From: Eubacteriales bacterium
GTDB taxonomy: Bacteria; Bacillota; Clostridia; Oscillospirales; CAG-272
Length of the DNA stretch: 64,000 bases
NCBI GenBank assembly: GCA_051867925.1
Contig: JBJDZI010000094.1
Span: 48,092 to 112,091 of the forward strand
Direction: 5' to 3'
Position numbers and translations under genes: made by a program. The notes under the pieces were generated by a model that was not told the DNA's origin, made no database searches, and worked only from the letters and a program-made list of their open reading frames with translations. Positions 7,596 through 56,355 of this stretch are shown piece by piece; within the stretch, counting starts at the first letter, position 1, and each line of letters begins with the position of its first letter.

Positions 7596-8381
7596 TTAAT
7601 AGTCAGCGTTTTGTGCTTTTTCTGTGTGGAGTTTCTGTTTGTATGCCATCAGATCCTCGGGGGTGTCGAAGATCTTCTGACTTGCCATGTCCACCGTCAC
7701 TGTATGCGACAGTTTATCGTGGATAGGTGTGCGGGCGCGGGTAGCCAGTACCGCCACGATCTGGATCACCAGAATCGCCAGAATCACCAGCAATCCGAAG
7801 ATGCCGGTCACTCCGAACCAAAACATCAAAAGAAGCATCACGGGGATCATGGTTTCCACGGTGTATTTGCCCAGCACCGTGCGGACAAACAGAAGCAGGG
7901 GCGTCAGTTTCACGCCATCCTCCCGCATCACACCGATGCCGAAGATTTTTTTGCCCACCGTCTGCCCGTTGCCAAGCACCAGCGGCACCAAAAACTCCAG
8001 TAACAAATGTCCGAATAAAATGGCAAACACCACGATGAGGAAGGTCAGATTGACCATCATCTGATAGGCGTAATTGGCGTCTTTGTCGCTTGTAAAGGCT
8101 TTGTATGCCTCGTCGTACAATGCTTTTTCCTCATCTGTTTGGGCATCGTATTCCGACGTGCTGATTTTCAGTTCAACACCATATTCCTGCTCACAGCGGA
8201 GCTTGACACTTTCCAGTCTGTCGGAATAATCGTCATAACCGAAAAGCGCAGACAAAAGGAGAGCCGCCCCGACAACCGCGATCACAAGCAAGATGAGATC
8301 GAACAACCATGCGGATACCCGTTTCCAAAGATCCGCTCTTTGCAAATCGTACATCAGGAGCCCTCCTACAATGGCGGACAC
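7596..8381 (-). CDS. RDD family membrane protein
   Basis: 261 aa. N-terminal LWKRVSAWLFDLILLVI motif and TM pattern typical of RDD domain proteins. TGn-TATAAT promoter-like sequence on the minus strand near 8415-8440. Confidence 0.8.
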   Translation of the reverse strand: MSAIVGGLLMYDLQRADLWKRVSAWLFDLILLVIAVVGAALLLSALFGYDDYSDRLESVKLRCEQEYGVELKISTSEYDAQTDEEKALYDEAYKAFTSDKDANYAYQMMVNLTFLIVVFAILFGHLLLEFLVPLVLGNGQTVGKKIFGIGVMREDGVKLTPLLLFVRTVLGKYTVETMIPVMLLLMFWFGVTGIFGLLVILAILVIQIVAVLATRARTPIHDKLSHTVTVDMASQKIFDTPEDLMAYKQKLHTEKAQNADY

Positions 8382-8671
8382 TCCCGCCTAAGCGCATTTA
8401 TACGATTTCATTATAGCACAAATCACGAAAAAAACAACACATTTTGCAGAATTTTTTCACATTTTCGGCTTTTTCGTCATACTGCACAACTCCAAGTTTA
8501 AATTTTGTAAATGATGCATATCGCATAATGCAAGGGCTTCCTGCACATGAAGGGACACCCAAAGGCGAAGAAGTCGTCGCGCAATTTCATTAGAATACAG
8601 TGCTAATCGGGTAGAATTTTGCCGTTTCCTTTCTTGGTTTTCGATCGTTCGGAATCATATTGGAATTCTGA

Positions 8672-8869
8672 GCTGTCGCAATATGCCCGGAGCGAATACA
8701 ACTGATATTCCGCTCCCTAAGGCACACCGATAGAGTGTTATTTTTCGATACTCGTTAGTTTGTTCTGAGTGAAGAAGAAAACCATCTCAGACGTCGAAGT
8801 TTTCGTAGCAACCGCAACGCAGTTGCTACACTCCTCATCAGACGCTCCGCCTTTTCCTTGCTCGGCAGT
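8672..8869 (+). repeat. Intergenic ~190-nt repeat family, copy A (degenerate central stem, extra inserted hairpin)
   Basis: Aligns by eye block-for-block with 29675-29860 and 50780-50960: GCTGTCGCAATA..ACTGATAT..AGTGTT..GTTAGTTTGTTCTGAG..ACCATCTCAGACGTCGAAGTT..TTCCTTGCTCGGCAGT. Confidence 0.85.
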
Positions 8870-8995
8870 GTGAACCGTACATAACAACTCGCCCGGCAAG
8901 GATTTGCCGGACTTCAATATAGTTCTTGGAGGTTTGGAACCTTATTTTGAGTAGGTTCCAAGAAAAAAATCGGGCGGCAAGGATTTGCCGCCCAC

Positions 8996-9107
8996 AGAGT
9001 GTCGAAAAAGTCTTTCAGAAAATCGAGAGGAGGGCGAAACCATCTCAAACGCCGAAGTTTTCGCCCTCCTCTCGAGCTCTCCACCCACTTCCTTGGCTGG
9101 CGGCACT
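8996..9107 (+). repeat. Intergenic ~190-nt repeat family, copy D (3' portion only)
   Basis: AGAGTGT.., then perfect 14-bp stem GAGAGGAGGGCGAA (9025-9038) / TTCGCCCTCCTCTC (9060-9073) with loop ACCATCTCAAACGCCGAAGT, then CTCTCCACCCACTTCCTTGGCTGGCGGCACT. Confidence 0.8.
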
Positions 9108-9245
9108 CTAAATTTATAGTTTATCGACAGACTGAGCCCGGCAAGAATTTGCCGCCCATTTTGATAAAAGATCTTGGAGGCGCAGGGAACCTCTTTCAAG
9201 AAGGTTTCTGCCGAGGCTTGGGGTAAAACCCCGATTTGATTAAAA

Positions 9246-10610
9246 TCAATTCTTCAAACTGTGGATAGGAGCGGGGATTCTGCCGCCGCGGTGGATGAAG
9301 CGTGCGGGAGAGTCGGTGGAGACGGGCATAATGGGAGCCTCGCCCAAAAGTCCGCCAAACTGCACACAGTCGCCCACTTTTTTGCCGTAAGCGGGGATGA
9401 TGCGGACAGCGGTGGTCTTGGTGTTCACCACGCCGATGGAGATTTCGTCAGCAATGATGCCGCAGATCACGTCAGAAGAGGTGTCACCGGGAACGGCGAT
9501 CATATCCAGACCAACCGAGCAAACGGCGGTCATGGCTTCCAACTTCTGCAAGGTCAGCCCACCCGATGCGGCGGCGGCGATCATACCCTCGTCTTCGGAC
9601 ACGGGAATAAACGCGCCCGAAAGTCCGCCGACATGGGAGGATGCCATTACGCCGCCCTTCTTGACGGCATCGTTGAGCAGAGCCAGACAAGCGGTGGTAC
9701 CCCAACCGCCGCAACGCTCCAGACCCATTTCTTCCAGAATACGGGCTACGCTGTCGCCGATGGCAGGAGTGGGAGCCAAAGAAAGGTCGATGATGCCAAA
9801 AGGAACGCCCAGACGGTCAGCCGCCTCGCGGGCAACGAGCTGTCCTACGCGGGTGATCTTGAAAGCGGTCTTCTTCACCACTTCAGCCAGTTCAGACAGA
9901 TTGCAGTCCCCTGCCCGCTTGATAGCGGATGCCACTACGCCGGGACCCGATACGCCCACATTGATGACGGTCTCAGGCTCGCCCATGCCGCAGAATGCAC
10001 CTGCCATAAAGGGATTGTCCTCGGGAGCGTTTGCAAAAACCACGAACTTTGCACAACCGATGGAATCGCTATCCTTGGTGCGAACTGCAAGTTCTTTGAT
10101 AATATCGCCGCATCGGATGATAGCATCCATATTGATGCCCGCCTTGGTGGAGGCTACATTCACCGAAGAGCAAAGACGGTTGGTCTCGGTCAGCGCTTCG
10201 GGGATGGAGTCCAGCAGAGCAGACGCGCCGCGGGTCATCCCCTTCTGCACCAGCGCGCCGTAACCACCGATGAAGTTGACGCCCAGCGTCTCTGCCGCAC
10301 GGTCGAGGGTCTTGGCGATCTTCACATAGCCGTCGGGGGTGGAAGTGCCGCCGATCAGCGAGATGGGAGTCAAAGAGATCCGCTTGTGAATGATCGGGAT
10401 ACCGTAGGTTTTCTCCAGTTCTTCACCGGTCTTCACCAGATTCGCCGCGGTGCGGGTGATCTTGTCATAGATCTTATCGCAAAGCCGCGCATTGTCTTCG
10501 CTGACGCAGTCGAAGAGGGAGATACCCATGGTAATGGTGCGGATGTCCAGATTTTCGTTCCGGATCATGTGAATGGTTTCGAGGATGTCCTCGTTACGGT
10601 ACATTTGCAT
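9246..10610 (-). CDS. UPF0210 (DUF711, PFL-like fold) family protein
   Basis: 454 aa. Near-colinear with the conserved UPF0210 family: [77 protein letters not shown]. Confidence 0.9.
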
Positions 10611-19225: not shown

Positions 19226-19302
19226 GGCGGAGTAGCTCAGCTGGCTAGAGCAACCGGTTCATACCCGGTAGGTCATGGGTTCAAGTCCAATCTCCGCTAC
19301 CA
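19226..19302 (+). tRNA. tRNA-Met (anticodon CAT, elongator-like; tRNA-Ile2/lysidine cannot be excluded)
   Basis: 77 nt cloverleaf folded by hand: acceptor GGCGGAG/CTCCGCT (G1-U72), D arm GCTC-AGCTGGCTA-GAGC, anticodon arm ACCGG-TTCATAC-CCGGT, T arm with GTTCAAGTC, encoded CCA. One G-A mismatch in the T stem. Confidence 0.9.
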
Positions 19303-19326
19303 ATTATCCGCAAAGCGGATAATTTC

Positions 19327-19401
19327 GGCCCGTTGGTCAAGCGGTTAAGACACGGCCCTTTCACGGCTGTAACATGGGTTCGATTCCCGTACGGGTCACC
19401 A
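19327..19401 (+). tRNA. tRNA-Glu (anticodon TTC)
   Basis: 75 nt: GGCCCGT..GGTCAAGCGGTTAAGAC..anticodon loop CTTTCAC..GGTTCGATTCC..ACGGGTC-A-CCA. Classic Firmicutes tRNA-Glu sequence. Confidence 0.9.
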
Positions 19402-27193: not shown

Positions 27194-27250
27194 GCGGCAT
27201 TTTATCTGCTGCACATTGATCCTATTGGGGCTTGACCCCCGCAAAACGTA

Positions 27251-27280
27251 GGGGCGGCAAGCACTTGCCGCCCCTTTTTA
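27251..27280 (+). terminator. Rho-independent terminator (member of the CGGCAA-N4-TTGCCG hairpin family)
   Basis: GGGGCGGCAA-GCAC-TTGCCGCCCC followed by TTTTTA. Confidence 0.7.
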
Positions 27281-27416
27281 TGAAATTCGGAAAAGACGAA
27301 AGAACCTTCTTTCAAGGGATCGGTCTCTTCCACGGACGACATCCATTACAGTCCTTTTCAAAAAAGCACTTGGAGGTGCAAAAGCCTTCTTTCAAGAAAG
27401 CTTTTGCAAAAATACT

Positions 27417-28094
27417 ATGGCAAAATTACTGATCGTAGACGACGAAGAAAAAATCCGCACGCTGATCCGCAAATACGCGGAATTTGACGGTCACACCGTC
27501 GTGGAAGCGGGCAACGGCATGGAAGCACTGGAGTGCTTCCGCAGAGAACCCTTTGATCTCATCGTGATGGACATTATGATGCCCGTGCTGGACGGACTGT
27601 CCGCGTCGCGGGAGATTCGCAAGCATAGCGAAGTCCCCATCATCGTGCTTTCGGCGCGGGGCGAGGAATATGACCGCATCGGCGGCTTTCAGCTTGGCGT
27701 GGACGACTATGTGGTCAAACCCTTCTCGCCCAAGGAGTTGATGCTGCGCATTGAGGCAATCCTCAAGCGCACCGTGGGAAGCAGCACATCCGACAAAAAA
27801 GAGATCTACCGCAAAGAAGGTCTGACGGTAGACTTCACCGCCCGCATCGTCACGGTGGACGGAGCGGTCGCCGAACTGTCCCCCAAAGAATACGAACTGC
27901 TCTTCTACATGATCCGCAACAAAAACATCGCGCTGACCAGAGAAAAACTGATCTGCGAGGTCTGGGGCTACGATTTTTACGGCGACGATCGCACGCTGGA
28001 CACCCACATCAAACTCCTACGCCACTCTTTAGGCCCATACAGCAAGTTCATCGTCACCCTGAGAGGAGTGGGCTACCGCTTTGAAGGCAACTAA
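27417..28094 (+). CDS. OmpR-family response regulator
   Basis: 225 aa. LIVDDEEKIR, DLIVMDIMMP, winged-helix C-terminus LTREKLICEVWG..TLDTHIKLLR..RGVGYRF. Confidence 0.92.
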   Translation: MAKLLIVDDEEKIRTLIRKYAEFDGHTVVEAGNGMEALECFRREPFDLIVMDIMMPVLDGLSASREIRKHSEVPIIVLSARGEEYDRIGGFQLGVDDYVVKPFSPKELMLRIEAILKRTVGSSTSDKKEIYRKEGLTVDFTARIVTVDGAVAELSPKEYELLFYMIRNKNIALTREKLICEVWGYDFYGDDRTLDTHIKLLRHSLGPYSKFIVTLRGVGYRFEGN

Positions 28095-29661
28095 ACACAG
28101 CAGTAGTAAATCCGTCCTGCACACCGCCCACCCCGGAAGGACTCACCCCCACAAAGGACTTTCGGTGCGGGTGAAGATCCTCCTCGCATTCCTGCTTTTC
28201 ACCATCCTTACTATGGGATTGCTTTGGCTGATGCAGGTCGTCTTCTTAGATCAGATTTACCGCACCATCAAGATTCGCAGTTTGGAAGACAGTGCCGACG
28301 AGGTCATCGCGGCGGTGGGAGGCGACGATCTGTACGATTGCGCAGATTCCCTTTCCAATCGCCACGGTCTGACGCTCCTGCTCTTCTATCCCGAAACGGG
28401 AAGCCTGACGCGGCTGGCATCTGCCTCACCGCTGACCGGCATGGGACGGGAACTCACCGCAGAAGACTGTATGCAACTGGTGATGCTGGCAGAAAAGGAA
28501 GGTGGTACTTACCTGCGCACCGAGGAGTTTGACGGCAACCGTCTGCCTCACGGCTCCAAAGATCCGCAGAATCAATCCTCCGCCCCCTCGCCAAACAAAG
28601 ATGCACTCCCCGCTCCCTCTGATGAGGATGCCATGGAGGTTGTGACCTACACCGCCCTGTTCGAAGCGGAAGAGGGCGTCACCGCCGCGCTGATCCTTCG
28701 CACGGTCATCACGCCCATCTCTGCCGCCCGGGACACCATCTTTTTCGTTCTGATGGCGGCATCTGTCCTGCTGACCCTGCTGGCAATTCTGCTGGCGATC
28801 TTCATCGCCCGCACCGTGGTACGCCCCATCGAGCAAATCAACAAAGGCGCGCATCGGCTGGCGGACGGCGATTACAGCTACCGTTTCCCCGAAACAGGCA
28901 GTTATCGGGAAGCGGGTGAGTTGGCGGCAACCCTCAACCATGCTTCCGAGGAACTTTCCAAGGTTGACAGCCTGCGCCGCGAACTAATCGCCAACGTTTC
29001 CCACGATCTGCGCACACCGCTGACTCTGATCTCGGGTTACAGCGAGGTGATGCGCGATCTGCCGGGCGAGATCACTCCCGAAAATCTGCAGACCATCATT
29101 GACGAGAGCGCACGGCTCACCTCGCTGGTCAACGATATGCTGGAGATCTCCAAAATCCAAAGCGGCAATCTGAACCCGATCCTCTTCCCCTTCTCCATCA
29201 GCGAAATGCTGCGGGAGAGCGTCGCCACCTACAAGAATCTCGCCACCTGTCAAGGCTATCATTTCACGCTTTGGATCGATCAAGAGGTTACGGTAAACGG
29301 TGACCGCGCCATGCTGGTGCGGGCACTGAACAATCTGATCAACAACGCGCTGACCTACACAGGCGAGGACAGAAAGATCGGTATCCGCCAGATCACCACC
29401 GCCTCCCGCGTGCGGATAGAGGTCACCGACACCGGTGCAGGCATCCCACAGGACAAACTGCAGGACATCTGGGATCGCTATTACAAAGTGGACACCGAAC
29501 ACAAACGCTCCGCCGTAGGCACGGGGCTGGGGCTGTCTATTGTCAAATCCATCATCTCGCTCCACGGCGGCTCTTGGGGTGTGCGCAGCAGCAACGGTTA
29601 TGGCTCCACCTTCTGGTTTGAACTGAGTCGGGAATCCGATGATGCTCCGAAAGCAATATAA
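28081..29661 (+). CDS. Sensor histidine kinase (TM-HAMP-HisKA-HATPase_c)
   Basis: 526 aa from TTG 28081 (overlapping the regulator). Alternative start GTG 28165 with AAAGGA SD. H-box VSHDLRTPLT, N-box NNLINNALTYT, G-box DTGAGIP..GTGLGLSIV. Confidence 0.88.
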   Translation: MKATKHSSSKSVLHTAHPGRTHPHKGLSVRVKILLAFLLFTILTMGLLWLMQVVFLDQIYRTIKIRSLEDSADEVIAAVGGDDLYDCADSLSNRHGLTLLLFYPETGSLTRLASASPLTGMGRELTAEDCMQLVMLAEKEGGTYLRTEEFDGNRLPHGSKDPQNQSSAPSPNKDALPAPSDEDAMEVVTYTALFEAEEGVTAALILRTVITPISAARDTIFFVLMAASVLLTLLAILLAIFIARTVVRPIEQINKGAHRLADGDYSYRFPETGSYREAGELAATLNHASEELSKVDSLRRELIANVSHDLRTPLTLISGYSEVMRDLPGEITPENLQTIIDESARLTSLVNDMLEISKIQSGNLNPILFPFSISEMLRESVATYKNLATCQGYHFTLWIDQEVTVNGDRAMLVRALNNLINNALTYTGEDRKIGIRQITTASRVRIEVTDTGAGIPQDKLQDIWDRYYKVDTEHKRSAVGTGLGLSIVKSIISLHGGSWGVRSSNGYGSTFWFELSRESDDAPKAI

Positions 29662-29674
29662 CAACGCAGAATAG

Positions 29675-29860
29675 AATGTCGCAATAAGTCTCTGATAGAC
29701 TACAACTGATATGCCAAATTCATGTGCGTCAACAGAGTGTTTATTGGCAATAATGGTTCGTTTCTGAGAGGAGGGCGGACGCCGAAGTTTCCGCCCTCCT
29801 CTCCGAGCCGCCGCGTAGCGGCTGTTGCTCCTCTCCACCCACTTCCTTGACTCCGGCAGT
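29675..29860 (+). repeat. Intergenic ~190-nt repeat family, copy B
   Basis: AATGTCGCAATA..CAACTGATAT..CAGAGTGTTT..GTTCGTTTCTGAG, perfect stem GAGAGGAGGGCGGA (29766-29779) / TCCGCCCTCCTCTC (29790-29803), ..CTCTCCACCCACTTCCTTGACTCCGGCAGT. Begins 14 nt after the kinase stop codon. Confidence 0.85.
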
Positions 29861-29987
29861 TTTGCGAAATTCAATCAAAAACAAATGCTGTCGCAAATAC
29901 AGAAATCATTCCTATCGAAACGACAACTTCTATAATAGGGACTATAGCAAAACTCCTGTTTTTCACGAAATTTGTGTGAAAAAGCGA

Positions 29988-30094: not shown

Positions 30095-31063
30095 TTACTC
30101 CATTTCCCAAAGGTTCAGGGATTTGTAATCGTCATCATAGACGATCTCCATCTTCTCGCCGTAATCGCGGACATAATAAGCGAATTCCCGCTCCTTATAG
30201 CTTTGAATGATGTCGTTGTAATTGTCGTTCACAAAATCCATGGATAACGCCTTGCGGCGGGCGATGAGAATACCGTCTCCCCGCACCACAGGCGCGGCGC
30301 ATTCCCCTTCCTTCAGCGAAAGGATCAATTCTTCAAAGTCCTCGTTCTGCTGGGTGTAGGTGAACGCATTCAGGTTAACGTATTCCATCGACAGCGCATA
30401 TTCGCCCGCATAGCGATCATCCAGCGTCTGCATAGATGTTCCCGCCTTGATCTCGGCGTACAAACTGTCGGCAAACGCGATCTTCTCGTCCTTATCGGTT
30501 TCCGAATAGTAGATATACAAATACTCGGCGGAGAAGAAATTGCCTGTGGCAATGTCCGCATCAATGGTAGCCGCATCGGTGGGAATCAAATTGTAACGCT
30601 CTTCAGTCAGATAGTCGTAGACCTTCCGCGCCAAGATCTGCAGTTCCACCAGTTCCTTGTAAACGTCCTCGGTCAAATATGCCTCTGCCAGTGCCGCTTG
30701 ATACGCGGCATCGTCGGCATACTCCGCCTTCATGGACTCCAGCGAAGACTCAACGCTTTTTTTCTCTTCATCGCTCAGTTTCAGATCAAACTCGTCTGCC
30801 AGCGCACGGTACGCCATCAATTCACGAATCGCATCGTAAACCAGAGTCTCCAGCCGCTCAACCTTGGCGGGATCAGCGGTATACTCCTCAGCGGTGTAGC
30901 CCAGTTCGCCTCGGTAATTCATGGTGAAATAGCGAAGCAGATCGTAGGAGACTTTCTCGTCCCCCACCTTCATTGCGACGTCGGAACAGCCAACCAGACA
31001 TCCCACGGCAAAGAGTGCCGCCATGAACAGAGCAATGATCTTAGCAATCGGTCGAGTGCGCAT
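30095..31063 (-). CDS. PrsA/SurA-N-like foldase-type lipoprotein
   Basis: Trimmed to ATG 31063 (MRTRPIAKIIALFMAALFAVGCLVGCSD, AAAGGAGG 7 nt upstream). Helical SurA_N-like region and a C-terminal PpiC-like remnant (..GECAAPVVRGDGILIARR..). Confidence 0.7.
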   Translation of the reverse strand: MRTRPIAKIIALFMAALFAVGCLVGCSDVAMKVGDEKVSYDLLRYFTMNYRGELGYTAEEYTADPAKVERLETLVYDAIRELMAYRALADEFDLKLSDEEKKSVESSLESMKAEYADDAAYQAALAEAYLTEDVYKELVELQILARKVYDYLTEERYNLIPTDAATIDADIATGNFFSAEYLYIYYSETDKDEKIAFADSLYAEIKAGTSMQTLDDRYAGEYALSMEYVNLNAFTYTQQNEDFEELILSLKEGECAAPVVRGDGILIARRKALSMDFVNDNYNDIIQSYKEREFAYYVRDYGEKMEIVYDDDYKSLNLWEME

Positions 31064-31092
31064 ACAAGCGCCTCCTTTCGGTAATACGCGGA

Positions 31093-32934
31093 TCAATATC
31101 TTTGGGTTTCATCCACGGGCAGACCGTCCCGCAGATCCTGCATGGCGACATACAACTGCTCCAGCCGCGAGGACAGCACATAGAAACTGCCCGCTTCCTC
31201 AGATGCCTTGCCGTCCGCGTCGATCTCCTGAATGGTGCAGAACAATCTGCCGTCGGACAACTCGTAGAAGCGGTACTTCTTGGAAACGCTCTCCAGAATG
31301 TAATCCACCTCTGTGGTGCTGGTGCCGGAGGAATCGGTCTTGTAGACCACTCTACGGCGGGAGGAGACCTCGATGGTTGCCACGGGATCGTTCTTCATCG
31401 CTTCTTTTGCTATCTCATCGGTGACTCTGCCGCGGTTGGCAATGCTGACGAGAATCTGATAGAACTCTCTGAATTCCTTCGTATTCAGCGTGATGCCGTC
31501 AGCCGTATTGATCACCAGATTGGTACCTGTGCCGGTCAGCTGATAGGTCTCGTTGATCTCCTGCAGACCAACTCTGTCGCTTTCTCCGACGCCCAGCGCG
31601 TAATACTTACCGCTGATCTTGATGGAGTCGCACTTGTCGATGCCCAGAAAAACCAGCTGATTCATCAGAAACGCCTGATCGTCCCACTGCAGGAAATAAG
31701 CGGTGTCCAGCGATACCTTGCAGATAGTGTTGAAGTTCAGCGAATAAGCATAGTAGTAGGACTCTTCCTGCAGATCGCTGAACCAGACTTCGCTTTCTAT
31801 GCCCTGATATTTATAGCGCAAAGTATATTTGATCTGATCGGGAGAAAGCCCATATTTTTCAAAGGTGGCGTCATCAAAGCCGTAGTAAGACTCTCCGTCT
31901 TCATCGGTGATCAAAGACGCCAGTTCCAGCACCTCATCCCCTGTAAAATCAGAGAACAGGCTGGTCAGCGTTTCAAAGCGGGTAGACACGTAGTAGCCGG
32001 GATGAGAAGCGGCATAGTAAACGCTGAGTCCTGCATACTGGGCAAAGGGATCTTTGGATGCGTTCAAGGGTTTGATGCTGATGGCAGGAGACAGTTTTTG
32101 CGTAACCGTTCCGTCTTCGTTGACGACGTCGTAGAGATATTCCTCTTCGTGTCTCCAGATGAAGAACGAATCGAATAATGTGGTATTCTGACTGTCAATG
32201 GGTAGTGTCAGCGTAGGCGTGATCAGCTTCACGGGAGAGAGGAGCAAAGCCGCGTCCAAATTGTTGGGAGACAGGGTGTAGACCGAGTCCCGCTCCATCG
32301 TCTCGCCGGTAGAGAGCAGTTTGTCCTCACCGACCACGCGAACGTAATATCCGCTTCCCGAAGGTGTTTTGTCGCCGACATAATAGGTGTAGGTCACCCC
32401 GTCAGTGGTTTCCAAGGTGACGGAAACCGCTTCCTCGGGAGTGGCATAGTCCAGACCGTAGCGACTGTAATCGTCGCAGTGATCCTCCACACGGGAGGTA
32501 GCCAGCGTCAGTCCTGCGCCCACCACCACGTTGGACAGCAGAGAACTGTTATAGGGAGCGTACTCGTAATTGATCAGGTAAAAATCACCGGGAACCAGAC
32601 CGTCCTCGTTGTCTTCGGAACCGCTGTACTGATAGAATCCCCAATCCACGTACTGTTTGCCGTAAACGGCGTTGCCGGGATTGTGGATCGAAATCTTGCT
32701 GATATTGGCGCGCTCGTAGTGGGGGTACATCAGTACGCGCCCGTTGGTGGACTCCACTTCGCTTTCCCAAATGGGCTTATACACTACCGTTTGGGTGGTG
32801 CCATCATCGTCTTCCATCAAATAACTGATGACGAAGTAGCCCACAAGCAGTACCACGAAAGCCGCCAAAAGCACGCCGATCGTCAGCATACTTCTTTGGA
32901 TCGAATTTTTTTTCTTAGTCACAAGACTGCTCAT
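31093..32934 (-). CDS. DUF4340 domain protein (N-terminal TM anchor), accessory to GldG-type ABC systems
   Basis: 613 aa. MSSLVTKKKNSIQRSMLTIGVLLAAFVVLLVGYF, then a large extracytoplasmic beta-rich body. 4-nt overlap with the upstream GldG-like gene. Confidence 0.75.
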   Translation of the reverse strand: MSSLVTKKKNSIQRSMLTIGVLLAAFVVLLVGYFVISYLMEDDDGTTQTVVYKPIWESEVESTNGRVLMYPHYERANISKISIHNPGNAVYGKQYVDWGFYQYSGSEDNEDGLVPGDFYLINYEYAPYNSSLLSNVVVGAGLTLATSRVEDHCDDYSRYGLDYATPEEAVSVTLETTDGVTYTYYVGDKTPSGSGYYVRVVGEDKLLSTGETMERDSVYTLSPNNLDAALLLSPVKLITPTLTLPIDSQNTTLFDSFFIWRHEEEYLYDVVNEDGTVTQKLSPAISIKPLNASKDPFAQYAGLSVYYAASHPGYYVSTRFETLTSLFSDFTGDEVLELASLITDEDGESYYGFDDATFEKYGLSPDQIKYTLRYKYQGIESEVWFSDLQEESYYYAYSLNFNTICKVSLDTAYFLQWDDQAFLMNQLVFLGIDKCDSIKISGKYYALGVGESDRVGLQEINETYQLTGTGTNLVINTADGITLNTKEFREFYQILVSIANRGRVTDEIAKEAMKNDPVATIEVSSRRRVVYKTDSSGTSTTEVDYILESVSKKYRFYELSDGRLFCTIQEIDADGKASEEAGSFYVLSSRLEQLYVAMQDLRDGLPVDETQRY

Positions 32935-41819: not shown

Positions 41820-42074
41820 GAAATGACTCCGAATGGTAATTTCTTGATACGATACAGCGGTGCGCGGTTGGATGAGCGCAACCGTCCAAAGCGGGGACGG
41901 TTCCCCGTCCTTGCGAGTATTGGGCGTGCGCAGGATCGCGTCGTGATTAAAAAGTTCTTTCGGCGGCGCAAGAATTGTGCCGCTTTAGCAAAAGTTCCGG
42001 GAGGTGTCGGAACCTTCCTCCGGGAAGGTTCCGACCGGCTTGGGAGCAGAGTTACGCCCGAAGCCCCAATTCAA

Positions 42075-43241
42075 TCAAAGATTCTTCAGGGTTTCCATTA
42101 CATATGCGGCAAATTCGGCGCAGGTGCAGCCGGTGTCGCGACCGGTAATGGTCAGTTTCTTCTCCTCGAACATACAGATGTCCAGCGCGCGTGCCAGTTT
42201 GTCGGACTCTGCCTGATAGCCGATGTGGGAGAGGAGCAGAACGGTAGCGCGGAGCATGGAGCAAGGATCGGCGTACTGCGCTCTTCCCTCCTTCACCATT
42301 CTGGGTGCAGAACCGTGGATGGCTTCGAACATCGCGTACTTCTTGCCGATGTTGGCAGAGCCTGCGGTGCCTACACCGCCCTGGAACTCAGCCGCTTCGT
42401 CGGTGATAATGTCGCCGTACAGATTGGGCAGGATGAAGACCTTGAAATCACGGCGACGCTTTTCGTCCACCAGTTTGGCGGTCATAATGTCGATGAACCA
42501 CTCGTCGGTGGTAATTTCGGGATATTCCTTCGCCATCTCTTCGCACAGGCGCAGGAACTTGCCGTCTGTGGTCTTAATCACATTGGCCTTGGTGACGATG
42601 GACACGCGGTTCTTGCCGTTGGCGCGGGCGTACTCGAATGCAAGACGGGCGATTCGATTGGTACCCTCGGTGGTGGTCACCACAAAATCCATGCCCAGAT
42701 CCTCGGTCACGTGAATACCCTTGGAGCCGACTGCGTAACCGCCCTCGGTATTTTCACGGAAGAAGGTCCAGTCGATGCCCTGCTCGGGAACCGATACGGG
42801 GCGCACGTTGGCGTACAGATCCAGTTCTTTGCGCATGGCAACGTTGGCAGACTCAATATTAGGCCAAGGATCGCCGGCGCGAGGCGTGGTGGTGGGTCCC
42901 TTCAGAATGACGTTGCAGGATTTCAGTTCTGCCAGAACGTCGTCAGGGATAGCTTTCATATGAGCAACGCGGTTCTCGATGGTCAAACCGTCGATGACTT
43001 TGAAGACGATCTTGCCCTTCCCCACCTCGTCAGCCAGCATTTCGGTCAGAACGGTCTGTGCCGCCGCGGTAATGGTGGGGCCAATGCCGTCGCCGCCGCA
43101 AATGCCGATGACGATCTGTTCCTTCTTGGAATAATCCACCGCGTCGCCTGCGGCGTTGATGCGGTCTACCCGATCCAGCTGCTCGGCAAGCAGTTTCTTA
43201 AAATGTTCGGCGGCAGCCTCGATTTGTGCTTCGTATTTCAT
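42075..43241 (-). CDS. Isocitrate/isopropylmalate dehydrogenase family enzyme (most likely isocitrate dehydrogenase)
   Basis: 388 aa. GDGIGPTI, LKGPTTTP..SANVAMRKELDLYANVRP, NLYGDIITDEAAEFQGGVGTAGSANIG, FEAIHGSAP. Confidence 0.85.
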   Translation of the reverse strand: MKYEAQIEAAAEHFKKLLAEQLDRVDRINAAGDAVDYSKKEQIVIGICGGDGIGPTITAAAQTVLTEMLADEVGKGKIVFKVIDGLTIENRVAHMKAIPDDVLAELKSCNVILKGPTTTPRAGDPWPNIESANVAMRKELDLYANVRPVSVPEQGIDWTFFRENTEGGYAVGSKGIHVTEDLGMDFVVTTTEGTNRIARLAFEYARANGKNRVSIVTKANVIKTTDGKFLRLCEEMAKEYPEITTDEWFIDIMTAKLVDEKRRRDFKVFILPNLYGDIITDEAAEFQGGVGTAGSANIGKKYAMFEAIHGSAPRMVKEGRAQYADPCSMLRATVLLLSHIGYQAESDKLARALDICMFEEKKLTITGRDTGCTCAEFAAYVMETLKNL

Positions 43242-50664: not shown

Positions 50665-50779
50665 ATGGATCTCCTCCTCGGACGATAATGGAATTGCTTG
50701 TATTGTAGCACATACTTTGGCAAATTGCAAGTATTTCGGACAAAAAAGATGCATTTGCAATAGCATAAATGCAATAGGG

Positions 50780-50960
50780 GCTGTCGCAATAAACCCTCTG
50801 AGCGAATACTACTGATATTCTGCCCTGCCAAGGCGAACCAATAAAGTGTTTGTTTTTTGATCATCGTTAGTTTGCTCTGAGGAGAGGGAGAAACCATTTC
50901 AGACGCCGAAGTATTCTCCCTCTCCTCAGACTGCTCTCCCTCTTCCTTGGCTCCGGCAGT
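50780..50960 (+). repeat. Intergenic ~190-nt repeat family, copy C
   Basis: GCTGTCGCAATA..CTACTGATAT..AAAGTGTTT..GTTAGTTTGCTCTGAG, perfect stem GAGGAGAGGGAGAA (50879-50892) / TTCTCCCTCTCCTC (50914-50927), loop ACCATTTCAGACGCCGAAGTA, ..CTCTCCCTCTTCCTTGGCTCCGGCAGT. Confidence 0.85.
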
Positions 50961-51021
50961 TCAGCAAAATCCAAATATATAACAAAGTGCCCTCAAAAAC
51001 ACACTTTTGCAAAAGCACTTG

Positions 51022-51084: not shown

Positions 51085-54000
51085 TTACTTCTTGCGTTTG
51101 AGGATCAAAAGCACGACGACTGCCGCGACTGTCACCGTCGCGATCACGATCACCACCACGGTTACCGTGGAGCCTCCGTCCTCTTCGCCCACATCGACGG
51201 GATCGTCCCCTGTCTCGTCGGGCGTCTCAGGAGTCTTGTCGGAACCGGGAGCGGTAGTCGTTCCGGGGTCCGCAGGATCGCCGGGATCGGAGGGATCGCC
51301 GGGATTGCCGGGATCGGAGGGATCGTCTGCTGTTCCGGGCGCATCGGGATCAGCGGGCAGTTGATACTCGTTGTCCACCGATACGTTGGTAGCATACTGA
51401 TTCTGTGCAAGTCCGGGCTTCAGCTCGCTGATGGAGTCTGTCCGCTCTCCTGCAAAGTAGACATTGCAGAAGGTCACGCCGTCCACATAGCTGGCTTCGT
51501 TCAGTCCCTGCACCACGATTCCCTTCTCGCCCAACGCTTCGGGATATACGTATACATTGTTCAGTACCACATTTTCCACGATGCCGTTGCCCCGTGCGTT
51601 CTGCTCGGTGTAGACGTAGAACCATACGCAATAATTGCCGATGAGCGAGTTGATCTTCTCAATATAGCAGTTGTCGAAAACGATATTCTTGACCGTTCCC
51701 TCGCCCGACTTCAGATGGATACCCATGCCGCGCGCCGCGTCGATGGTAACACAGTCGCGGAAGGTCACGTCGTATTGCATCTGATTGGAGCCCTGTCCTA
51801 CCTTGTAGCCAAAACACTTACTGTAAGCCATACAGTTCTCAAAGACCACATCGGAGAGGTACTCGGGAACGCCCGCCCAGTTGATGGTGATACCCGTCTT
51901 GTAGGGCCATGTTTTGGTAGAGAACGAGTCATCGCGGGAGAAGCCGATGCAACTACGCACCACCACGTTCTGGCTCTCGCAAATGTCAATGCAGTCATCC
52001 TCGTACTGACGGTAGCCGATGAGCTGATACATCTTCAGCCATTCGAATACCATATGGTCGCTGCGCACGGCGATGACCGACCAGCAGATGCCCTCGCGGA
52101 TGGTAAGTCCTTCCAGAGTAAAGTAGGAGCAGGCGATCGGGATCACGGTATTGTTGCCGATCTCATACTGGAACGCGCCCGGATTATTGATAGACCAGAA
52201 CTCGCTGTCCCGTCCGTCCAGAACGCCGCGTCCGCCGATGCGGATGTCATAGGAGCCCTCCACCTTGGTGCCATCCTCACTCTCCTTGGCGTAGGTAGTA
52301 ATCCACCAGGTGTAGTCCAGTCCCTTACCGCCCGCAGGCGTATCCATAGAGGTCTTGTTGCCATGAACCTTCAAGAGAGAGGTGTCGGAGGTGATCCGCA
52401 TCGTGGCGCCGCCCTCCAGATACAGGAAGGTGTTGGAAGAGATCACCAGATTGCCCACATAGTACAGACCTGCGGGAATATAGACCACGCCGTTTTGGTG
52501 GCCCTTGACGCTGCCGTATGCGGAAGCATCGTCCAGTGCCTTCTGGATCGCCTCAGTGACCTGCTTATCGCTCATCTTGGTGGGGTCTACCGAATAGGGC
52601 GCGGCGGTGATGTTGAAGATGCCCTCGCCGCTCCGGGCGGGAACGTCAGTCTGCATCGGGTCTGCGGAGACGCAGAGATGCTTGCCGTTGATGATCAAAT
52701 CGTAGTTGTAGTTTTCGGTAATGGTCAGCGTGATCTTCTTGTTATTCTTGGAACACTCCACATTCATGTGCTGAGGGCTGACCGTAAGACTCCGCACGGA
52801 AACGTTGCATTCCACCACAACGGTCACAGGGCCCTTTTCGGGATCGTAATCGAAGGAAGCGAACTCGTACTGATCGTTTGCCATCACCGAGATCGGCACC
52901 TCCACACCGTCTACGGTGAGTTTATACTGCTCCGACTGATTATAGCAGTCGGCAAGGGGATAAACGGTGATCTTGTCGGTGGTTTGGGGAGCAGCCTTCA
53001 CACCGGGATAGGTATCCAGCATTCCGTCGGGAACGGTCACGGTGGCAGGCGTGCTGTTTTCTTTGGTGGCGATCTTGGGAATCTCCAATTCGGAGGTGAA
53101 GGTCAGCGTGGACTCGTCCACGGGATCGCCCAGTCTGATGTAGTCGATAGTAAAGGCGGAAGTCTCTTCGGTAGCACCTGCGCCAACCAGTTTGAAGGAC
53201 ACGGTATTCTCGCCCTTCTTGAAGTCGGCGTTACCCAGCGTTACGGTGCGGACATTACTGAGCCAGCCGTTCATCACACCGCCCACCAGTACGCCGGATT
53301 TCTGCGAGATCTCGCCGCCGATCTCCTTGCCGTTGACCAGCACCTGCACGGTGGAATAACTGTCGGTACCCGGACGGTACGCCCAGACCACGCTGTGTTG
53401 CCCTGCTTCTTCCAGCGTAACGGTATAATCCACGGTACCGCCGATGCCGCCGCTGCGGAAGTATGCCAGATCGCCCGATACCAGCGACGCACCCGTGATC
53501 TTCAGGCTCCACGCCCATTTGCTTTCCTTATTGACGGTAGTGGTCACGCCCTCGCTGTCGGTCACCGAGAAGGGAGTCGTTTCTGCCTCGAAAAGGAAGG
53601 GATCGGCCGGCTCACCGGGATCGGGTTCCACCGTGGGCTTGTCGCCGGGATTGCCGGTTGCGGCAACCAGTTTGAAATAGTCCACCGTAATGGCGGAATT
53701 GTACTCGCCGCCCGGATGGTTGGCGGTGGTCATAAAGGTGACGGTATTGATTCCTTTGACGAATGCCGCAGTACCCAGCGTAATCTCGCGGACGGCGTTG
53801 TGCTTGTTGACCTCACCTGCTACGGTATCGCCCGCTTTCAGCGAGATCTCGTCACCTACCGCCGTTCCGTTAACATAGACCTGCACGGTGGAGTAGGAAT
53901 CATTGCTGGGGCGCATCGCCCAGATCAGATCGTAATTCTTTGCCTCGTCCAGCGTGATGGTGTAATCCACAGTACCGCCCTCACCGCCGCTGCGAAAATA

Positions 54001-54246
54001 GGCGATGTTGCCGGAGTTGCCGGTGACACCGGTGAGGTTCAACTTCAGATTCCATTTCCATTTGCTGTTATTGGCACCGCTGCCGTCGCTCTTGGAAGTG
54101 GTGACGCCCGTGTTATCGGTTACGGTAAAGGGAGTATCTTCCCCTTCAAATTTCAGTTCTGCGGACTGGGTTGCGAAGACGCTCACACTGGGCAATGTCA
54201 AAACGCACCCCAGAATCAAAATCAAAGCAATGAGTTTTCTTTTCAT
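51085..54246 (-). CDS. Large secreted protein: 2 CBM6/35-like modules + beta-sandwich + right-handed beta-helix glycoside hydrolase-like domain (GH28/GH49/GH87-like) + Pro/Asp linker + C-terminal TM anchor
   Basis: About 1053 aa from ATG 54246 (MKRKLIALILILGCVL..VFA, GAGGAA SD). Modules start (L/F)(K/F)FE(G/A)E.TPF and end DY(F/I)(K/R)L. Helix region with EDDCIDI, SRDDSFSTKTW, GMGIHLKS. Tail ..VVVIVIATVTVAAVVVLLILKRKK. Confidence 0.8.
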   Translation of the reverse strand: MKRKLIALILILGCVLTLPSVSVFATQSAELKFEGEDTPFTVTDNTGVTTSKSDGSGANNSKWKWNLKLNLTGVTGNSGNIAYFRSGGEGGTVDYTITLDEAKNYDLIWAMRPSNDSYSTVQVYVNGTAVGDEISLKAGDTVAGEVNKHNAVREITLGTAAFVKGINTVTFMTTANHPGGEYNSAITVDYFKLVAATGNPGDKPTVEPDPGEPADPFLFEAETTPFSVTDSEGVTTTVNKESKWAWSLKITGASLVSGDLAYFRSGGIGGTVDYTVTLEEAGQHSVVWAYRPGTDSYSTVQVLVNGKEIGGEISQKSGVLVGGVMNGWLSNVRTVTLGNADFKKGENTVSFKLVGAGATEETSAFTIDYIRLGDPVDESTLTFTSELEIPKIATKENSTPATVTVPDGMLDTYPGVKAAPQTTDKITVYPLADCYNQSEQYKLTVDGVEVPISVMANDQYEFASFDYDPEKGPVTVVVECNVSVRSLTVSPQHMNVECSKNNKKITLTITENYNYDLIINGKHLCVSADPMQTDVPARSGEGIFNITAAPYSVDPTKMSDKQVTEAIQKALDDASAYGSVKGHQNGVVYIPAGLYYVGNLVISSNTFLYLEGGATMRITSDTSLLKVHGNKTSMDTPAGGKGLDYTWWITTYAKESEDGTKVEGSYDIRIGGRGVLDGRDSEFWSINNPGAFQYEIGNNTVIPIACSYFTLEGLTIREGICWSVIAVRSDHMVFEWLKMYQLIGYRQYEDDCIDICESQNVVVRSCIGFSRDDSFSTKTWPYKTGITINWAGVPEYLSDVVFENCMAYSKCFGYKVGQGSNQMQYDVTFRDCVTIDAARGMGIHLKSGEGTVKNIVFDNCYIEKINSLIGNYCVWFYVYTEQNARGNGIVENVVLNNVYVYPEALGEKGIVVQGLNEASYVDGVTFCNVYFAGERTDSISELKPGLAQNQYATNVSVDNEYQLPADPDAPGTADDPSDPGNPGDPSDPGDPADPGTTTAPGSDKTPETPDETGDDPVDVGEEDGGSTVTVVVIVIATVTVAAVVVLLILKRKK

Positions 54247-54306
54247 AGTATTCCTCACAAGTTCGAATGGAATGACGACTCGGATAAAACTAACGGTTCC
54301 CTGCGA

Positions 54307-56130: not shown

Positions 56131-56355
56131 TCGAATAACTTCCTTTCGTGAAATCATCAGTTCTGCCACCATGCGGCGATTCATGGGTGCATTTCTTCAT
56201 TATTATTATAAATTGATTTTGTCAAGATTTCAATATTATTTTCTTTGCATTTCTTGCATTTAACTACGATTTTTGTTCTCTTTTCTCTATTTTGCACAAA
56301 TATAGCGTTTCTTGATTGTGTGTTTTAACCATATCTAATTCCGCCCTTCCCCACT

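What the first reader, a model, noticed from the sequence alone, without database searches (positions are those of the whole stretch)
8672..9107. Novel ~190-nt intergenic element in 3.5 copies with compensatory changes in a 14-bp stem (structured sRNA family or MITE-like element)
Copies lie on the + strand at 8672-8869 (A), 8996-9107 (D, 3' part only), 29675-29860 (B) and 50780-50960 (C), all intergenic. Conserved blocks: TGTCGCAATA .. ACTGATAT .. AGTGTT .. GTT(A/C)GTTT(G/C)TCTGAG. A 14-bp perfect stem follows whose sequence differs between copies yet stays fully complementary: C has GAGGAGAGGGAGAA/TTCTCCCTCTCCTC, B has GAGAGGAGGGCGGA/TCCGCCCTCCTCTC, D has GAGAGGAGGGCGAA/TTCGCCCTCCTCTC. The loop ACCATCTCA(A/G)ACGCCGAAGT is conserved but shortened in B. 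The 3' block is CTC(T)CC..CTTCCTTG(G/A)CTCCGGCAGT. Copy A has a decayed stem plus an inserted GTAGCAAC-N9-GTTGCTAC hairpin. No conserved ORF, no transposase, and no clear terminal inverted repeats (only a weak CTGYCG at both ends). The copies are not consistently upstream of a gene, so a cis-leader is unlikely. I cannot match the element to any named RNA family from memory. Two copies sit in an 864-bp gene-free stretch (8382-9245) that is unusual for this compact genome.
Basis: seen in the sequence. Interest (0 to 1): 0.65.

Follow-up and report, generated by a model that had tools for sequence, protein, structure and literature searches.

The report
Multi-copy hairpin small-RNA gene family

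Summary
There are four copies in the window (A, B, C, D), and Rfam, plasmid, phage and viral collections give no match. The long stem covaries strongly. In 6 distinct copies, including relatives, 10 of 16 pairs changed on both sides, none changed on one side only, and 0 of 500 shuffles reached this.

The interpretation needs correcting in two ways. First, the functional strand is most likely the minus strand. Second, copy D is a complete short gene, not a fragment. It has an AT-rich -10-like box, a purine tract (GCCAAGGAAGUGGGUGGAGAG), a 15-bp hairpin with a conserved loop (ACUUCGGCGUUUGAGAUGG), a linker, and a canonical terminator with U7. A relative's copy (L013) has the same layout with a different terminator. 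Copy A's "decayed" stem is intact on the minus strand.

The family is unstable. A strain of the same species lacks B: about 265 nt are replaced by CGGG. Relatives carry copies at other sites, and assemblies break at copies. I found no terminal inverted repeats, no convincing target duplication, no transposase and no conserved ORF.

Best reading: a new family of sibling sRNA genes that behaves like a repeat. The RNA's function is unknown. Rivals are a DNA-level palindromic repeat and a cis antiterminator. Interest is moderate.

The parts
8963..9118 (-). Copy D, a complete short-form unit. It has a -10-like TATAAA (9118-9113) and a purine tract GCCAAGGAAGUGGGUGGAGAG (9097-9077). The main hairpin spans 9073-9025: a 15-bp stem and the loop ACUUCGGCGUUUGAGAUGG. 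A linker containing ACACUCU follows, then the terminator GGGCGGCAA-AUCC-UUGCCGCCC (8993-8972) and a U7 run (8969-8963).
   Evidence: Sequence. Terminator scan. Covariance-model hit of 108 bits. Fold with z = -5.6, with the main hairpin and terminator both formed.
8672..8886 (-). Copy A, long form. It has an extended -10-like TGTTATGTA (8886-8878) and a degenerate purine tract. The main stem (8842-8764) carries two G-U pairs, one U-G pair and one bulge. A perfect GTAG...CTAC palindrome is inserted at 8805-8829. A 3' hairpin domain follows, ending in UAUUGCGACAG (8683-8673).
   Evidence: Minus-strand fold with z = -3.2 versus -1.95 on the plus strand. The 3' domain folds with z = -3.2. Palindrome scan.
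29666..29934 (-). Copy B plus its upstream promoter-like region. This is the segment that is absent from a strain of the same species. The RNA part is 29862-29675. The main stem is 29803-29766, with a shortened loop that keeps CUUCGGCG. An extra hairpin lies between the purine tract and the stem.
   Evidence: Alignment with L020, where about 265 nt are replaced by CGGG and the flanks match. Covariance-model hit of 81 bits.
50741..50984 (-). Copy C, long form. It has an extended -10-like TGTTATATA (50984-50976). The RNA part is 50962-50780. The main stem is 17 bp (50930-50914 with 50892-50876). A downstream hairpin, UGCAUUU...AAAUGCA (50773-50750), is followed by a U6 run (50748-50743).
   Evidence: The copy is identical in strain L004. 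It is present with 7-10 substitutions in strain L021.
9137..9245 (.). A hairpin module that precedes D on the minus strand. It is a variable hairpin, then CCUCCAAGANCUUUU, then a CGGCAA..UUGCCG hairpin. It is repeated before A (8885-8970), so D and A form a tandem duplication of [module + sRNA].
   Evidence: the repeat finder family D8, pattern search, flank BLAST of A_up against D_up, and alignment.

Best explanation
These are paralogous small non-coding RNA genes ('sibling sRNAs') read from the window's minus strand.

Each unit has, in order:
- an AT-rich -10-like box;
- a 5' purine-rich tract (GCCAAGGAAGUGGGNGGAGAG);
- a 14-17-bp perfectly Watson-Crick hairpin, whose sequence drifts by paired changes while its 19-21-nt apical loop (ACUUCGGCGUYUGARAUGG) stays fixed;
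- a linker containing ACUCU;
- a terminator.

Two forms exist. The short form (D, L013, L018) is about 145 nt and ends in an ordinary Rho-independent terminator. The long form (A, B, C) is found only in this species. It carries an extra segment of about 70 nt, and in C a hairpin with U6 follows.

Shown: the anatomy, the covariation, and the gain and loss of copies. Inferred: the strand and the transcription. Guessed: the function. The invariant apical loop, and perhaps the exposed purine tract, would be the contact surface for a target RNA or an RNA-binding protein. The long perfect duplex would give stability or act as an RNase III site.

The genes spread or are lost as promoter-plus-RNA cassettes in terminator-rich spacers. 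Duplication or recombination is the likely route, rather than a dedicated transposase.
For: Strand:
- D is followed on the minus strand by a 9-10-bp GC-rich hairpin plus U7.
- L013 is followed by CCGACGGCA-AU-GCCGUCGG plus CUUUUUG, and that hairpin has no T-run for the convergent CNNM gene.
- C is followed by a hairpin plus U6.
- A's main stem is continuous only on the minus strand, through G-U pairs.
- The invariant CUUCGG reads as a UUCG-type loop only on this strand, and it is what remains in B's shortened loop (sequence).

Structure:
- 10 of 16 stem pairs are compensated, and 0 of 500 shuffles reach this.
- Folds have z = -5.6 (D), -6.5 (L013) and -5.0 (C).

Independent unit, not a leader:
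- B and L013 converge on the 3' ends of genes.
- C sits between a terminator and the GH76 gene's own TTGCAA-17-TACAAT promoter.

Non-coding: ORFs starting at the loop AUG differ in length and sequence between copies, and B lacks the AUG (read directly from the sequences).

Family:
- 8 copies are known: A, B, C, D, C' in L021, L006, L013 and L018.
- Rfam has no family for it, even at E up to 10.
Against: - There is no transcript evidence.
- The promoters are only -10-like boxes, without good -35 elements. The same AT-rich boxes can also be read as plus-strand -10s (flags TTGGCT-16-TATAGT on the plus strand at D).
- B has no recognisable terminator.
- The stem shows no G-U pair in six copies. 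That is unusual for an RNA helix and would also fit a DNA palindrome.
- Strain L021 carries an A-C mismatch in the minus-strand reading that would be a G-U pair on the plus strand.
- No target was found. Complementarity searches in the window gave only composition-driven hits.
- The long-form 3' domain has no conserved fold.
Confidence: 0.5

Rival explanations
1. It is a selfish, DNA-level intergenic repeat: a REP/BIME-like or MITE-like mosaic of palindromes. On this reading the hairpins matter as DNA or single-stranded DNA structures, or only as passive 3'-UTR stabilisers and terminators. Any transcription would be incidental.
For: - The stems are strictly Watson-Crick, with no one-sided change in six copies.
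- B is present in one strain and absent in another of the same species.
- Copies sit at non-orthologous sites in relatives.
- Four independent assemblies end at or inside a copy.
- Five of the eight copies carry extra perfect hairpins inserted at two sites.
- The only two GTAG...CTAC palindromes in about 350 kb of window plus loci lie inside copies A and L018.
- L018 is flanked by a 29-37-nt direct repeat.
- Copies travel with another hairpin repeat family.
Against: - There are no TIRs, no consistent target duplication and no transposase or RAYT in the window.
- The apical loop is conserved in sequence while the stem drifts. That is the opposite of what a purely structural palindrome predicts.
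- The layout is directional, with terminators with U-runs on one strand only.
- The unit that is gained or lost includes about 72 nt of promoter-like upstream sequence.
- Density in relatives is low: 0-1 copies per 15-21 kb.
Confidence: 0.22
2. It is a cis-acting transcription attenuator, working as an antiterminator 'ON switch'. The 5' segment just upstream of the purine tract would pair with the 5' arm of the unit's own terminator. When a factor bound to the enclosed domain stabilises that pairing, transcription would read through. Read-through would run into the downstream gene (RDD after D and A, GH76 after C, PPIase after L018) or run antisense into a convergent gene (HK after B, CNNM after L013).
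For: - In D, UGCCGCC at the 5' end is the exact complement of the terminator's 5' arm GGCGGCA (shuffle p = 0.001).
- In L013 a different 5' segment, CCGUUGGC, matches its own, different terminator arm GCCGACGG (p = 0.02).
- C gives p = 0.035 and L018 p = 0.055.
- With the terminator's 3' arm removed, D folds into this alternative.
- L018 lies directly upstream of, and co-oriented with, the PPIase start codon.
Against: - A and B show no significant pairing.
- Non-cognate combinations score as well as the cognate one for L013.
- B and L013 have no downstream co-oriented gene.
- C is separated from GH76 by a second terminator and GH76's own promoter.
- The downstream genes are functionally unrelated.
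- The full-length MFE structures keep the terminator.
Confidence: 0.13
3. It is a plus-strand RNA. It would be a CU-rich anti-Shine-Dalgarno sRNA whose tracts CCCUCCUCUC and CUCUCCACCCACUUCCUUGG pair with ribosome-binding sites. It could arise as a 3'-UTR product, for example B lying 14 nt after the HK stop codon.
For: - On the plus strand the RNA carries classic C/U-rich seed-like tracts.
- B starts 14 nt after the HK stop codon on that strand.
- A plus-strand closing helix CUGUCG/CGGCAG has a G-U pair (sequence).
- The L021 stem mismatch would be a G-U pair on this strand.
- A hairpin followed by AUUUUG lies 30 nt downstream of D on the plus strand.
Against: - D and L013 have no room for a plus-strand promoter. 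Their plus-strand 5' ends abut a hairpin preceded by an A-run, which is a minus-strand terminator.
- A's stem breaks on the plus strand, with z = -1.95.
- A and C have no co-oriented upstream gene to read through from.
- The closing helix exists only in the long copies.
Confidence: 0.1
4. It is a small-protein or type I toxin-antitoxin locus. These too are multi-copy, strain-variable and intergenic, with a Shine-Dalgarno sequence sequestered in a hairpin.
For: The 5' arm of the stem is Shine-Dalgarno-like (GGAGG), and an AUG sits in the loop of most copies. Tandem duplication and strain variability are typical of type I systems (general knowledge; review PMC2887945 was listed but not read).
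Against: - The AUG is 17-22 nt from GGAGG.
- The ORFs from it are 7 to 79 codons long, unrelated in sequence beyond what nucleotide identity gives, and not hydrophobic.
- B lacks the AUG.
- Compensatory changes in both stem arms are not what a coding constraint produces.
Confidence: 0.03

Closest known systems
Sibling sRNA families of Gram-positive bacteria (e.g. LhrC1-5 of Listeria, csRNA1-5 of Streptococcus; recalled from general knowledge, not tested here)
   Same: Several paralogous genes of about 100-200 nt per genome, some of them in tandem. Each has its own terminator. A short invariant exposed sequence sits in an otherwise drifting structure.
   Different: Those families expose C/U-rich anti-Shine-Dalgarno seeds and have defined regulators (LisR, CiaR). 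Here the exposed parts are a purine tract and a mixed-sequence loop, and no regulator site is known. Copy presence differs even between strains of one species. There is no sequence or Rfam similarity.
bcr1-type structured intergenic repeats of the Bacillus cereus group, and stem-loop repeat families in general (topic of PMC3184786 and PMC2267715, listed; the details here are from my own knowledge)
   Same: Intergenic repeats of about 150-200 nt with predicted stable RNA folds and compensatory changes. They vary between strains and are sometimes transcribed.
   Different: As I recall it, bcr1 has a defined target duplication and high copy number. Here there is no TIR or TSD, copy number appears low, and each unit has a directional promoter-to-terminator layout.
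REP/BIME elements and GTAG-tagged palindromes mobilised by RAYT transposases (topic of PMC3733652, listed; the details here are from my own knowledge)
   Same: Mosaics of perfect palindromes in spacers at the 3' ends of genes. Two hairpins inserted inside copies A and L018 carry the GTAG...CTAC signature.
   Different: The main hairpin has no GTAG/CGTC head. Its loop, not its stem, is what is conserved. No RAYT gene was seen. The unit is far larger than a REP.
ON-type riboswitch / antiterminator leaders (e.g. the pbuE adenine riboswitch; from general knowledge)
   Same: In D and L013 the strand that could close the 5' domain is also the 5' arm of the terminator.
   Different: There is no consistent downstream gene and no conserved multi-helix aptamer. 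The pairing is not supported in A and B.

Membership tests
Any Rfam 15 family | Covariance-model score at or above the family's gathering threshold | tested here: not met
   The whole window at gathering thresholds gives only two tRNAs. The A/D region and the C region, searched at E up to 10, give only hairpin noise of 23 bits or less against thresholds of 41-144.
MITE | Terminal inverted repeats | tested here: not met
The ends of the B insertion, as defined by the empty site in L020, are TATAGAAGTTG... and ...GACATTCTAT(TCTGC). They are not inverted repeats.
MITE | Target-site duplication of fixed length at filled versus empty sites | tested here: inconclusive
   One clean comparison was available (B versus L020). 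At most CTAT or TAT is repeated, and the flanks have diverged. L018 instead has a 29-37-nt flanking direct repeat that includes a terminator.
MITE | Related autonomous element with a transposase in the genome | not testable with these tools
   Only 64 kb of the genome is available. No transposase-like ORF lies next to any copy. There is no match in plasmids, phages or viral contigs.
MITE / mobile repeat | Dispersed copies with presence/absence polymorphism | tested here: met
   B is absent in same-species strain L020. L013 has a copy after the CNNM gene where the window has none. L018 has a copy before the PPIase gene where the window has none. The A/D spacer holds two small ORFs in L010, L012 and L013.
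Independently transcribed bacterial sRNA gene | Rho-independent terminator at the 3' end on the coding strand | tested here: met
   D has the hairpin at 8994-8971 plus ATTTTTTT. L013 has CCGACGGCAATGCCGTCGG plus CTTTTTG. C has a hairpin plus U6. The terminator is weak or absent for A and B.
Independently transcribed bacterial sRNA gene | Own promoter | tested here: inconclusive
   -10-like boxes lie 15-24 nt upstream of GCCAAGG in all complete copies: TGTTATATA, TGCTATATA, TGTTATGTA, TATAAA, TTATAG and TTATAC. There is no convincing -35, and the consensus scan did not call them.
Independently transcribed bacterial sRNA gene | A discrete transcript is detected | not testable with these tools
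   No expression data are available.
Structured RNA (any) | Covariation supporting the helix beyond phylogenetic noise | tested here: met
   10 of 16 pairs changed on both sides, 94.8% of cells are paired, 0 of 500 shuffles reach this, and slid registers give 52-63%. Caveats: there are only 6 sequences, the alignment was fitted to the model, and all pairs are Watson-Crick, so a DNA palindrome is not excluded.
Type I toxin-antitoxin | Conserved small hydrophobic ORF | tested here: not met
   ORFs from the loop AUG are 7-79 codons long, are not conserved, and are absent in B (sequences).
Cis-regulatory leader / riboswitch | Consistent position upstream of, and co-oriented with, a gene class | tested here: not met
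   B and L013 converge on gene 3' ends. The genes downstream of the other copies are unrelated: RDD, GH76 and PPIase.

The most novel reading that the evidence does not exclude
The family could be a self-contained sRNA cassette (promoter, RNA and terminator) that moves without a transposase. It would colonise terminator-rich spacers by duplicating or borrowing the local terminator. The terminator repeats flanking D and L018 point this way. Its 5' end would be tuned to each acquired terminator, so that the same RNA doubles as a factor-dependent antiterminator. Read-through would then run into downstream genes, or antisense into convergent ones, many of which encode envelope-related proteins. 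That would be a mobile, modular riboregulator of a kind not yet described.
Probability: 0.1. Interest if true: 0.75.

Novelty: new member of a known kind. Interest (0 to 1): 0.42.

Why it matters
If this is confirmed, it adds an undescribed sRNA family from a poorly studied, uncultured Clostridia lineage (MAGs labelled Eubacteriales or Clostridia bacterium). It also shows sRNA genes turning over between strains like repeats. This bears on how new riboregulators arise and spread. The strict Watson-Crick drift of a 14-17-bp stem around a fixed loop gives a clear handle for experiments. The practical value is modest: it would be an annotation for an Rfam-type family, and it explains why assemblies of these genomes break at these sites.

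Tried and rejected
- **Rfam.** Gathering and permissive searches found nothing.
- **Genome-collection scan.** In hindsight the core pattern would have been the better choice.
- **Metagenome scan.** The core pattern gave one true relative (L006) and four chance hits in coding sequence.
- **Viral contigs, plasmids, phages.** No match.
- **Covariance model.** The core model, run over about 270 kb of window plus loci, added only C' in strain L021 to the copies nhmmer had already found.
- **Target search.** Perfect complementarity of 11 nt or more within the window gave only a D-specific GC-rich 12-13-mer that matches Leu/Ala codon runs, plus one 13-mer at 61659 on the strand opposite the likely gene. 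I judged both uninformative. An RNAduplex scan timed out.
- **Long-range 5'/3' helix in the long copies.** Registers differ between A, B and C, and shuffles are not significant for A and B. I do not claim it.
- **Conserved fold of the long-form 3' domain.** Rejected: z is about 0 for B and C.
- **Similarity between flanks of different copies.** Only the A/D tandem module is shared.
- **Coding readings on both strands.** Rejected.
- **G-U asymmetry as a strand test.** The minus strand is favoured by copy A's wobble pairs and the plus strand by one site in L021. This is too few to decide.

Full report
**1. Observation**

A profile built from A, B and C finds exactly A (8663-8870), B (29666-29870), C (50771-50970) and the partial match D (8997-9098). 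It finds nothing else in the 64 kb. A degenerate 25-base pattern spanning the loop and the 3' block hits all four, against 0.00 expected.

The stems are perfect and differ between copies, as stated. C's stem is in fact 17 bp. Rfam 15 has no family for the element. At gathering thresholds the window yields two tRNAs. At E up to 10 the A/D and C regions give only generic hairpin noise.

**2. Context**

All neighbours are ordinary chromosomal genes.

- A and D lie between an RDD-family gene (7596-8381, minus strand) and a DUF711/PFL-family gene (9246-10610, minus strand).
- B lies between a convergent histidine kinase gene (28081-29661, plus strand) and a PrsA/SurA-like PPIase gene (30095-31096, minus strand).
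- C lies between a large surface-protein gene with its own strong terminator and a GH76 gene. The GH76 promoter, TTGCAA-17-TACAAT with a TG motif, lies between C and the gene.

The organism belongs to an uncultured Clostridia lineage. The DUF711 protein is 100% identical to one from an NCBI 'MAG: Eubacteriales bacterium' contig of 115 kb. Proteins that are 95-96% identical come from 'Clostridia bacterium' MAGs.

**3. Relatives of the element**

The genome-collection scan used the long-form 5' pattern. It gave only a chance hit and consumed the quota. The metagenome scan used a core pattern. It gave one true relative, L006, a contig cut inside the copy, plus four chance hits in coding sequence.

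I then fetched contigs through homologues of the flanking proteins. This yielded the following.

- **L013/L014** (DUF711 96% identical). Both contigs end inside a new short copy after the CNNM gene. The window's orthologous spacer is empty.
- **L018** (PPIase 67% identical). A copy lies between a DUF4340 gene and the PPIase gene. Three extra hairpins are inserted in it, and it is flanked by a 29-37-nt direct repeat that contains the upstream terminator.
- **L021** (same species). C is retained with several substitutions.
- **L020** (same species). B is absent. Window positions ~29666-29934 are replaced by CGGG, and both flanks align well.
- **L010, L012, L013.** The DUF711-RDD spacer holds two small ORFs instead of A and D.
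- **L015, L019, L022.** No copy at the B or C sites.
- **Logan contigs L002/L003.** Both stop exactly at window position 9108, which is D's edge.

A covariance model of the core finds no further copies in about 270 kb. Plasmid, phage and viral collections have nothing.

**4. Strand and anatomy**

Read on the minus strand, D is a textbook small gene. In order it has:

- a TATAAA box;
- the tract GCCAAGGAAGUGGGUGGAGAG;
- a 15-bp hairpin with the loop ACUUCGGCGUUUGAGAUGG;
- a linker with ACACUCU;
- a 9-10-bp GC-rich hairpin;
- a U7 run.

L013 has the same order, with a different stem sequence and a different canonical terminator. That terminator's U-run serves this strand, not the convergent CNNM gene. 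C is followed by a hairpin plus U6.

On the minus strand A's 'decayed' stem becomes 17 bp, with two G-U pairs, one U-G pair and one bulge. It forms a three-way junction around the inserted hairpin. The fold has z = -3.2, against -1.95 on the plus strand. The invariant CUUCGG reads as a UUCG-type loop only on this strand, and it is the part that B's shortened loop keeps.

All complete copies have an AT-rich -10-like box 15-24 nt upstream of GCCAAGG. The -35 elements are poor. The same boxes can also be read on the plus strand.

So the terminators are the main evidence for strand, and the promoter evidence is weak. One counter-datum exists: the L021 copy has a G-to-A change that is an A-C mismatch on the minus strand but would be a G-U pair on the plus strand.

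**5. Covariation**

The test used six distinct copies aligned to the model.

| Measure | Result |
|---|---|
| Cells paired in the 16-bp helix | 94.8% |
| Pairs changed on both sides | 10 of 16 |
| Pairs changed on one side only | 0 |
| Shuffles reaching the observed values | 0 of 500 |
| Cells paired in slid registers | 52-63% |

The helix is therefore under selection. The complete absence of G-U intermediates is notable. It keeps open either a DNA-level palindrome or a requirement for a perfect duplex, such as an RNase III substrate.

The loop is conserved in sequence while the stem drifts. This points to the loop as the functional surface.

**6. What is not conserved**

It folds convincingly only in A. 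B and C give z near 0. Its terminal motif UUAUUGCGACAG is already rewritten in strain L021. With three sequences that are about 75% identical, invariant blocks of 8-11 nt are only marginally unexpected. That last point is my estimate, not a tool result.

No ORF is conserved on either strand.

**7. Other readings**

*(a) DNA-level repeat.* This is supported by:

- the strain polymorphism;
- the assembly breaks at copies;
- the strict Watson-Crick stems;
- the extra perfect hairpins inserted in five of the eight copies;
- the location of the only two GTAG...CTAC palindromes in all the sequence held, which lie inside copies A and L018 (0.1 expected per 64 kb).

It is opposed by the conserved loop, the directional layout, and the absence of TIRs, TSDs and a transposase.

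*(b) Cis antiterminator.* In D and L013 the 5' segment is complementary to the 5' arm of that copy's own, different, terminator (p = 0.001 and 0.02). C and L018 are marginal, and A and B are not significant. Non-cognate pairs score as well as the cognate pair for L013. Two copies also have no downstream co-oriented gene.

*(c) Plus-strand CU-rich sRNA.* The chemistry is attractive, but this reading is incompatible with the layout of D and L013.

*(d) Type I toxin or small protein.* Rejected.

**8. Verdict**

This is a real family that matches nothing in Rfam. It is best described as sibling sRNA genes on the minus strand that turn over like repeats. Confidence is about 0.5.

The function is unknown. 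My best guess is a trans-acting RNA that binds an RNA or a protein through the invariant apical loop.

It is a new member of a known kind and of moderate interest. The more exotic reading is a mobile cassette whose 5' end is matched to an acquired terminator and acts as an antiterminator. It is not excluded, but it is weakly supported.

Noticed in passing
window 9137-9245, 8885-8970, 27240-27410, 41950-42100; L006:140-240: A second repeat family. It is a hairpin whose stem differs between copies but stays paired, followed by a conserved CCUCCAAGANCUUUU (read on the minus strand), and often by a CGGCAA..UUGCCG hairpin. It lies downstream of unrelated genes (DUF711, an isocitrate/isopropylmalate dehydrogenase-like gene, and a gene ending at 27193). 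It directly precedes sRNA copies D, A and L006.
   Followed up: partly
window 8805-8829; L018:9860-9882: These are the only two perfect GTAG...CTAC palindromes in the window plus about 290 kb of fetched loci. Both are insertions inside copies of the element (0.1 expected per 64 kb). Other copies carry different inserted perfect hairpins: B, L006, and two more in L018. This suggests small palindromes invading or expanding within the family.
   Followed up: partly
L010:11993-12702, L012:11987-12857, L013:6001-6866 (orthologous to window 8494-9165): In relatives with 95-96% identical DUF711, the DUF711-RDD spacer holds two small ORFs without Pfam hits (148+88 aa or 146+142 aa). The window has the two sRNA copies there instead. 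The spacer is a variable islet.
   Followed up: no
window 51085-56184 versus L021:2676-4316: The large repetitive surface-protein genes upstream of C (1057 and 625 aa, with internal repeats of about 585 nt, families D1-D6) are missing in same-species strain L021. L021 has only a 98-aa ORF that keeps the signal peptide and the last codons plus the terminator. This looks like a deletion through the repeats.
   Followed up: no
L018:9733-9791 and 9952-9989: A direct repeat of about 29-37 nt flanks the L018 copy. It comprises the upstream gene's terminator hairpin (GCTCTCGTYAGGGAGCAGTATCTCTTAT) and CATTCCGA. Likewise, D is flanked by two near-identical CGGCAA..TTGCCG hairpins (9137-9158 and 8972-8995). 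Terminator duplication may be part of how the units arise.
   Followed up: partly
window 8654-8681, 29640-29686, 50750-50790 (minus strand): The conserved end of each long copy contains TTGCGA. It is followed after 16-18 nt, outside the conserved part, by TATGAT (A), TATATT (B) or TATGCT (C). This could be an outward-facing hybrid promoter. The scan tool called only the one at A. The same TTGCGACAG motif also lies about 30 nt upstream of B's RNA start.
   Followed up: partly
window 19226-19398: Two adjacent tRNA genes are the only Rfam gathering-level hits in the window.
   Followed up: no
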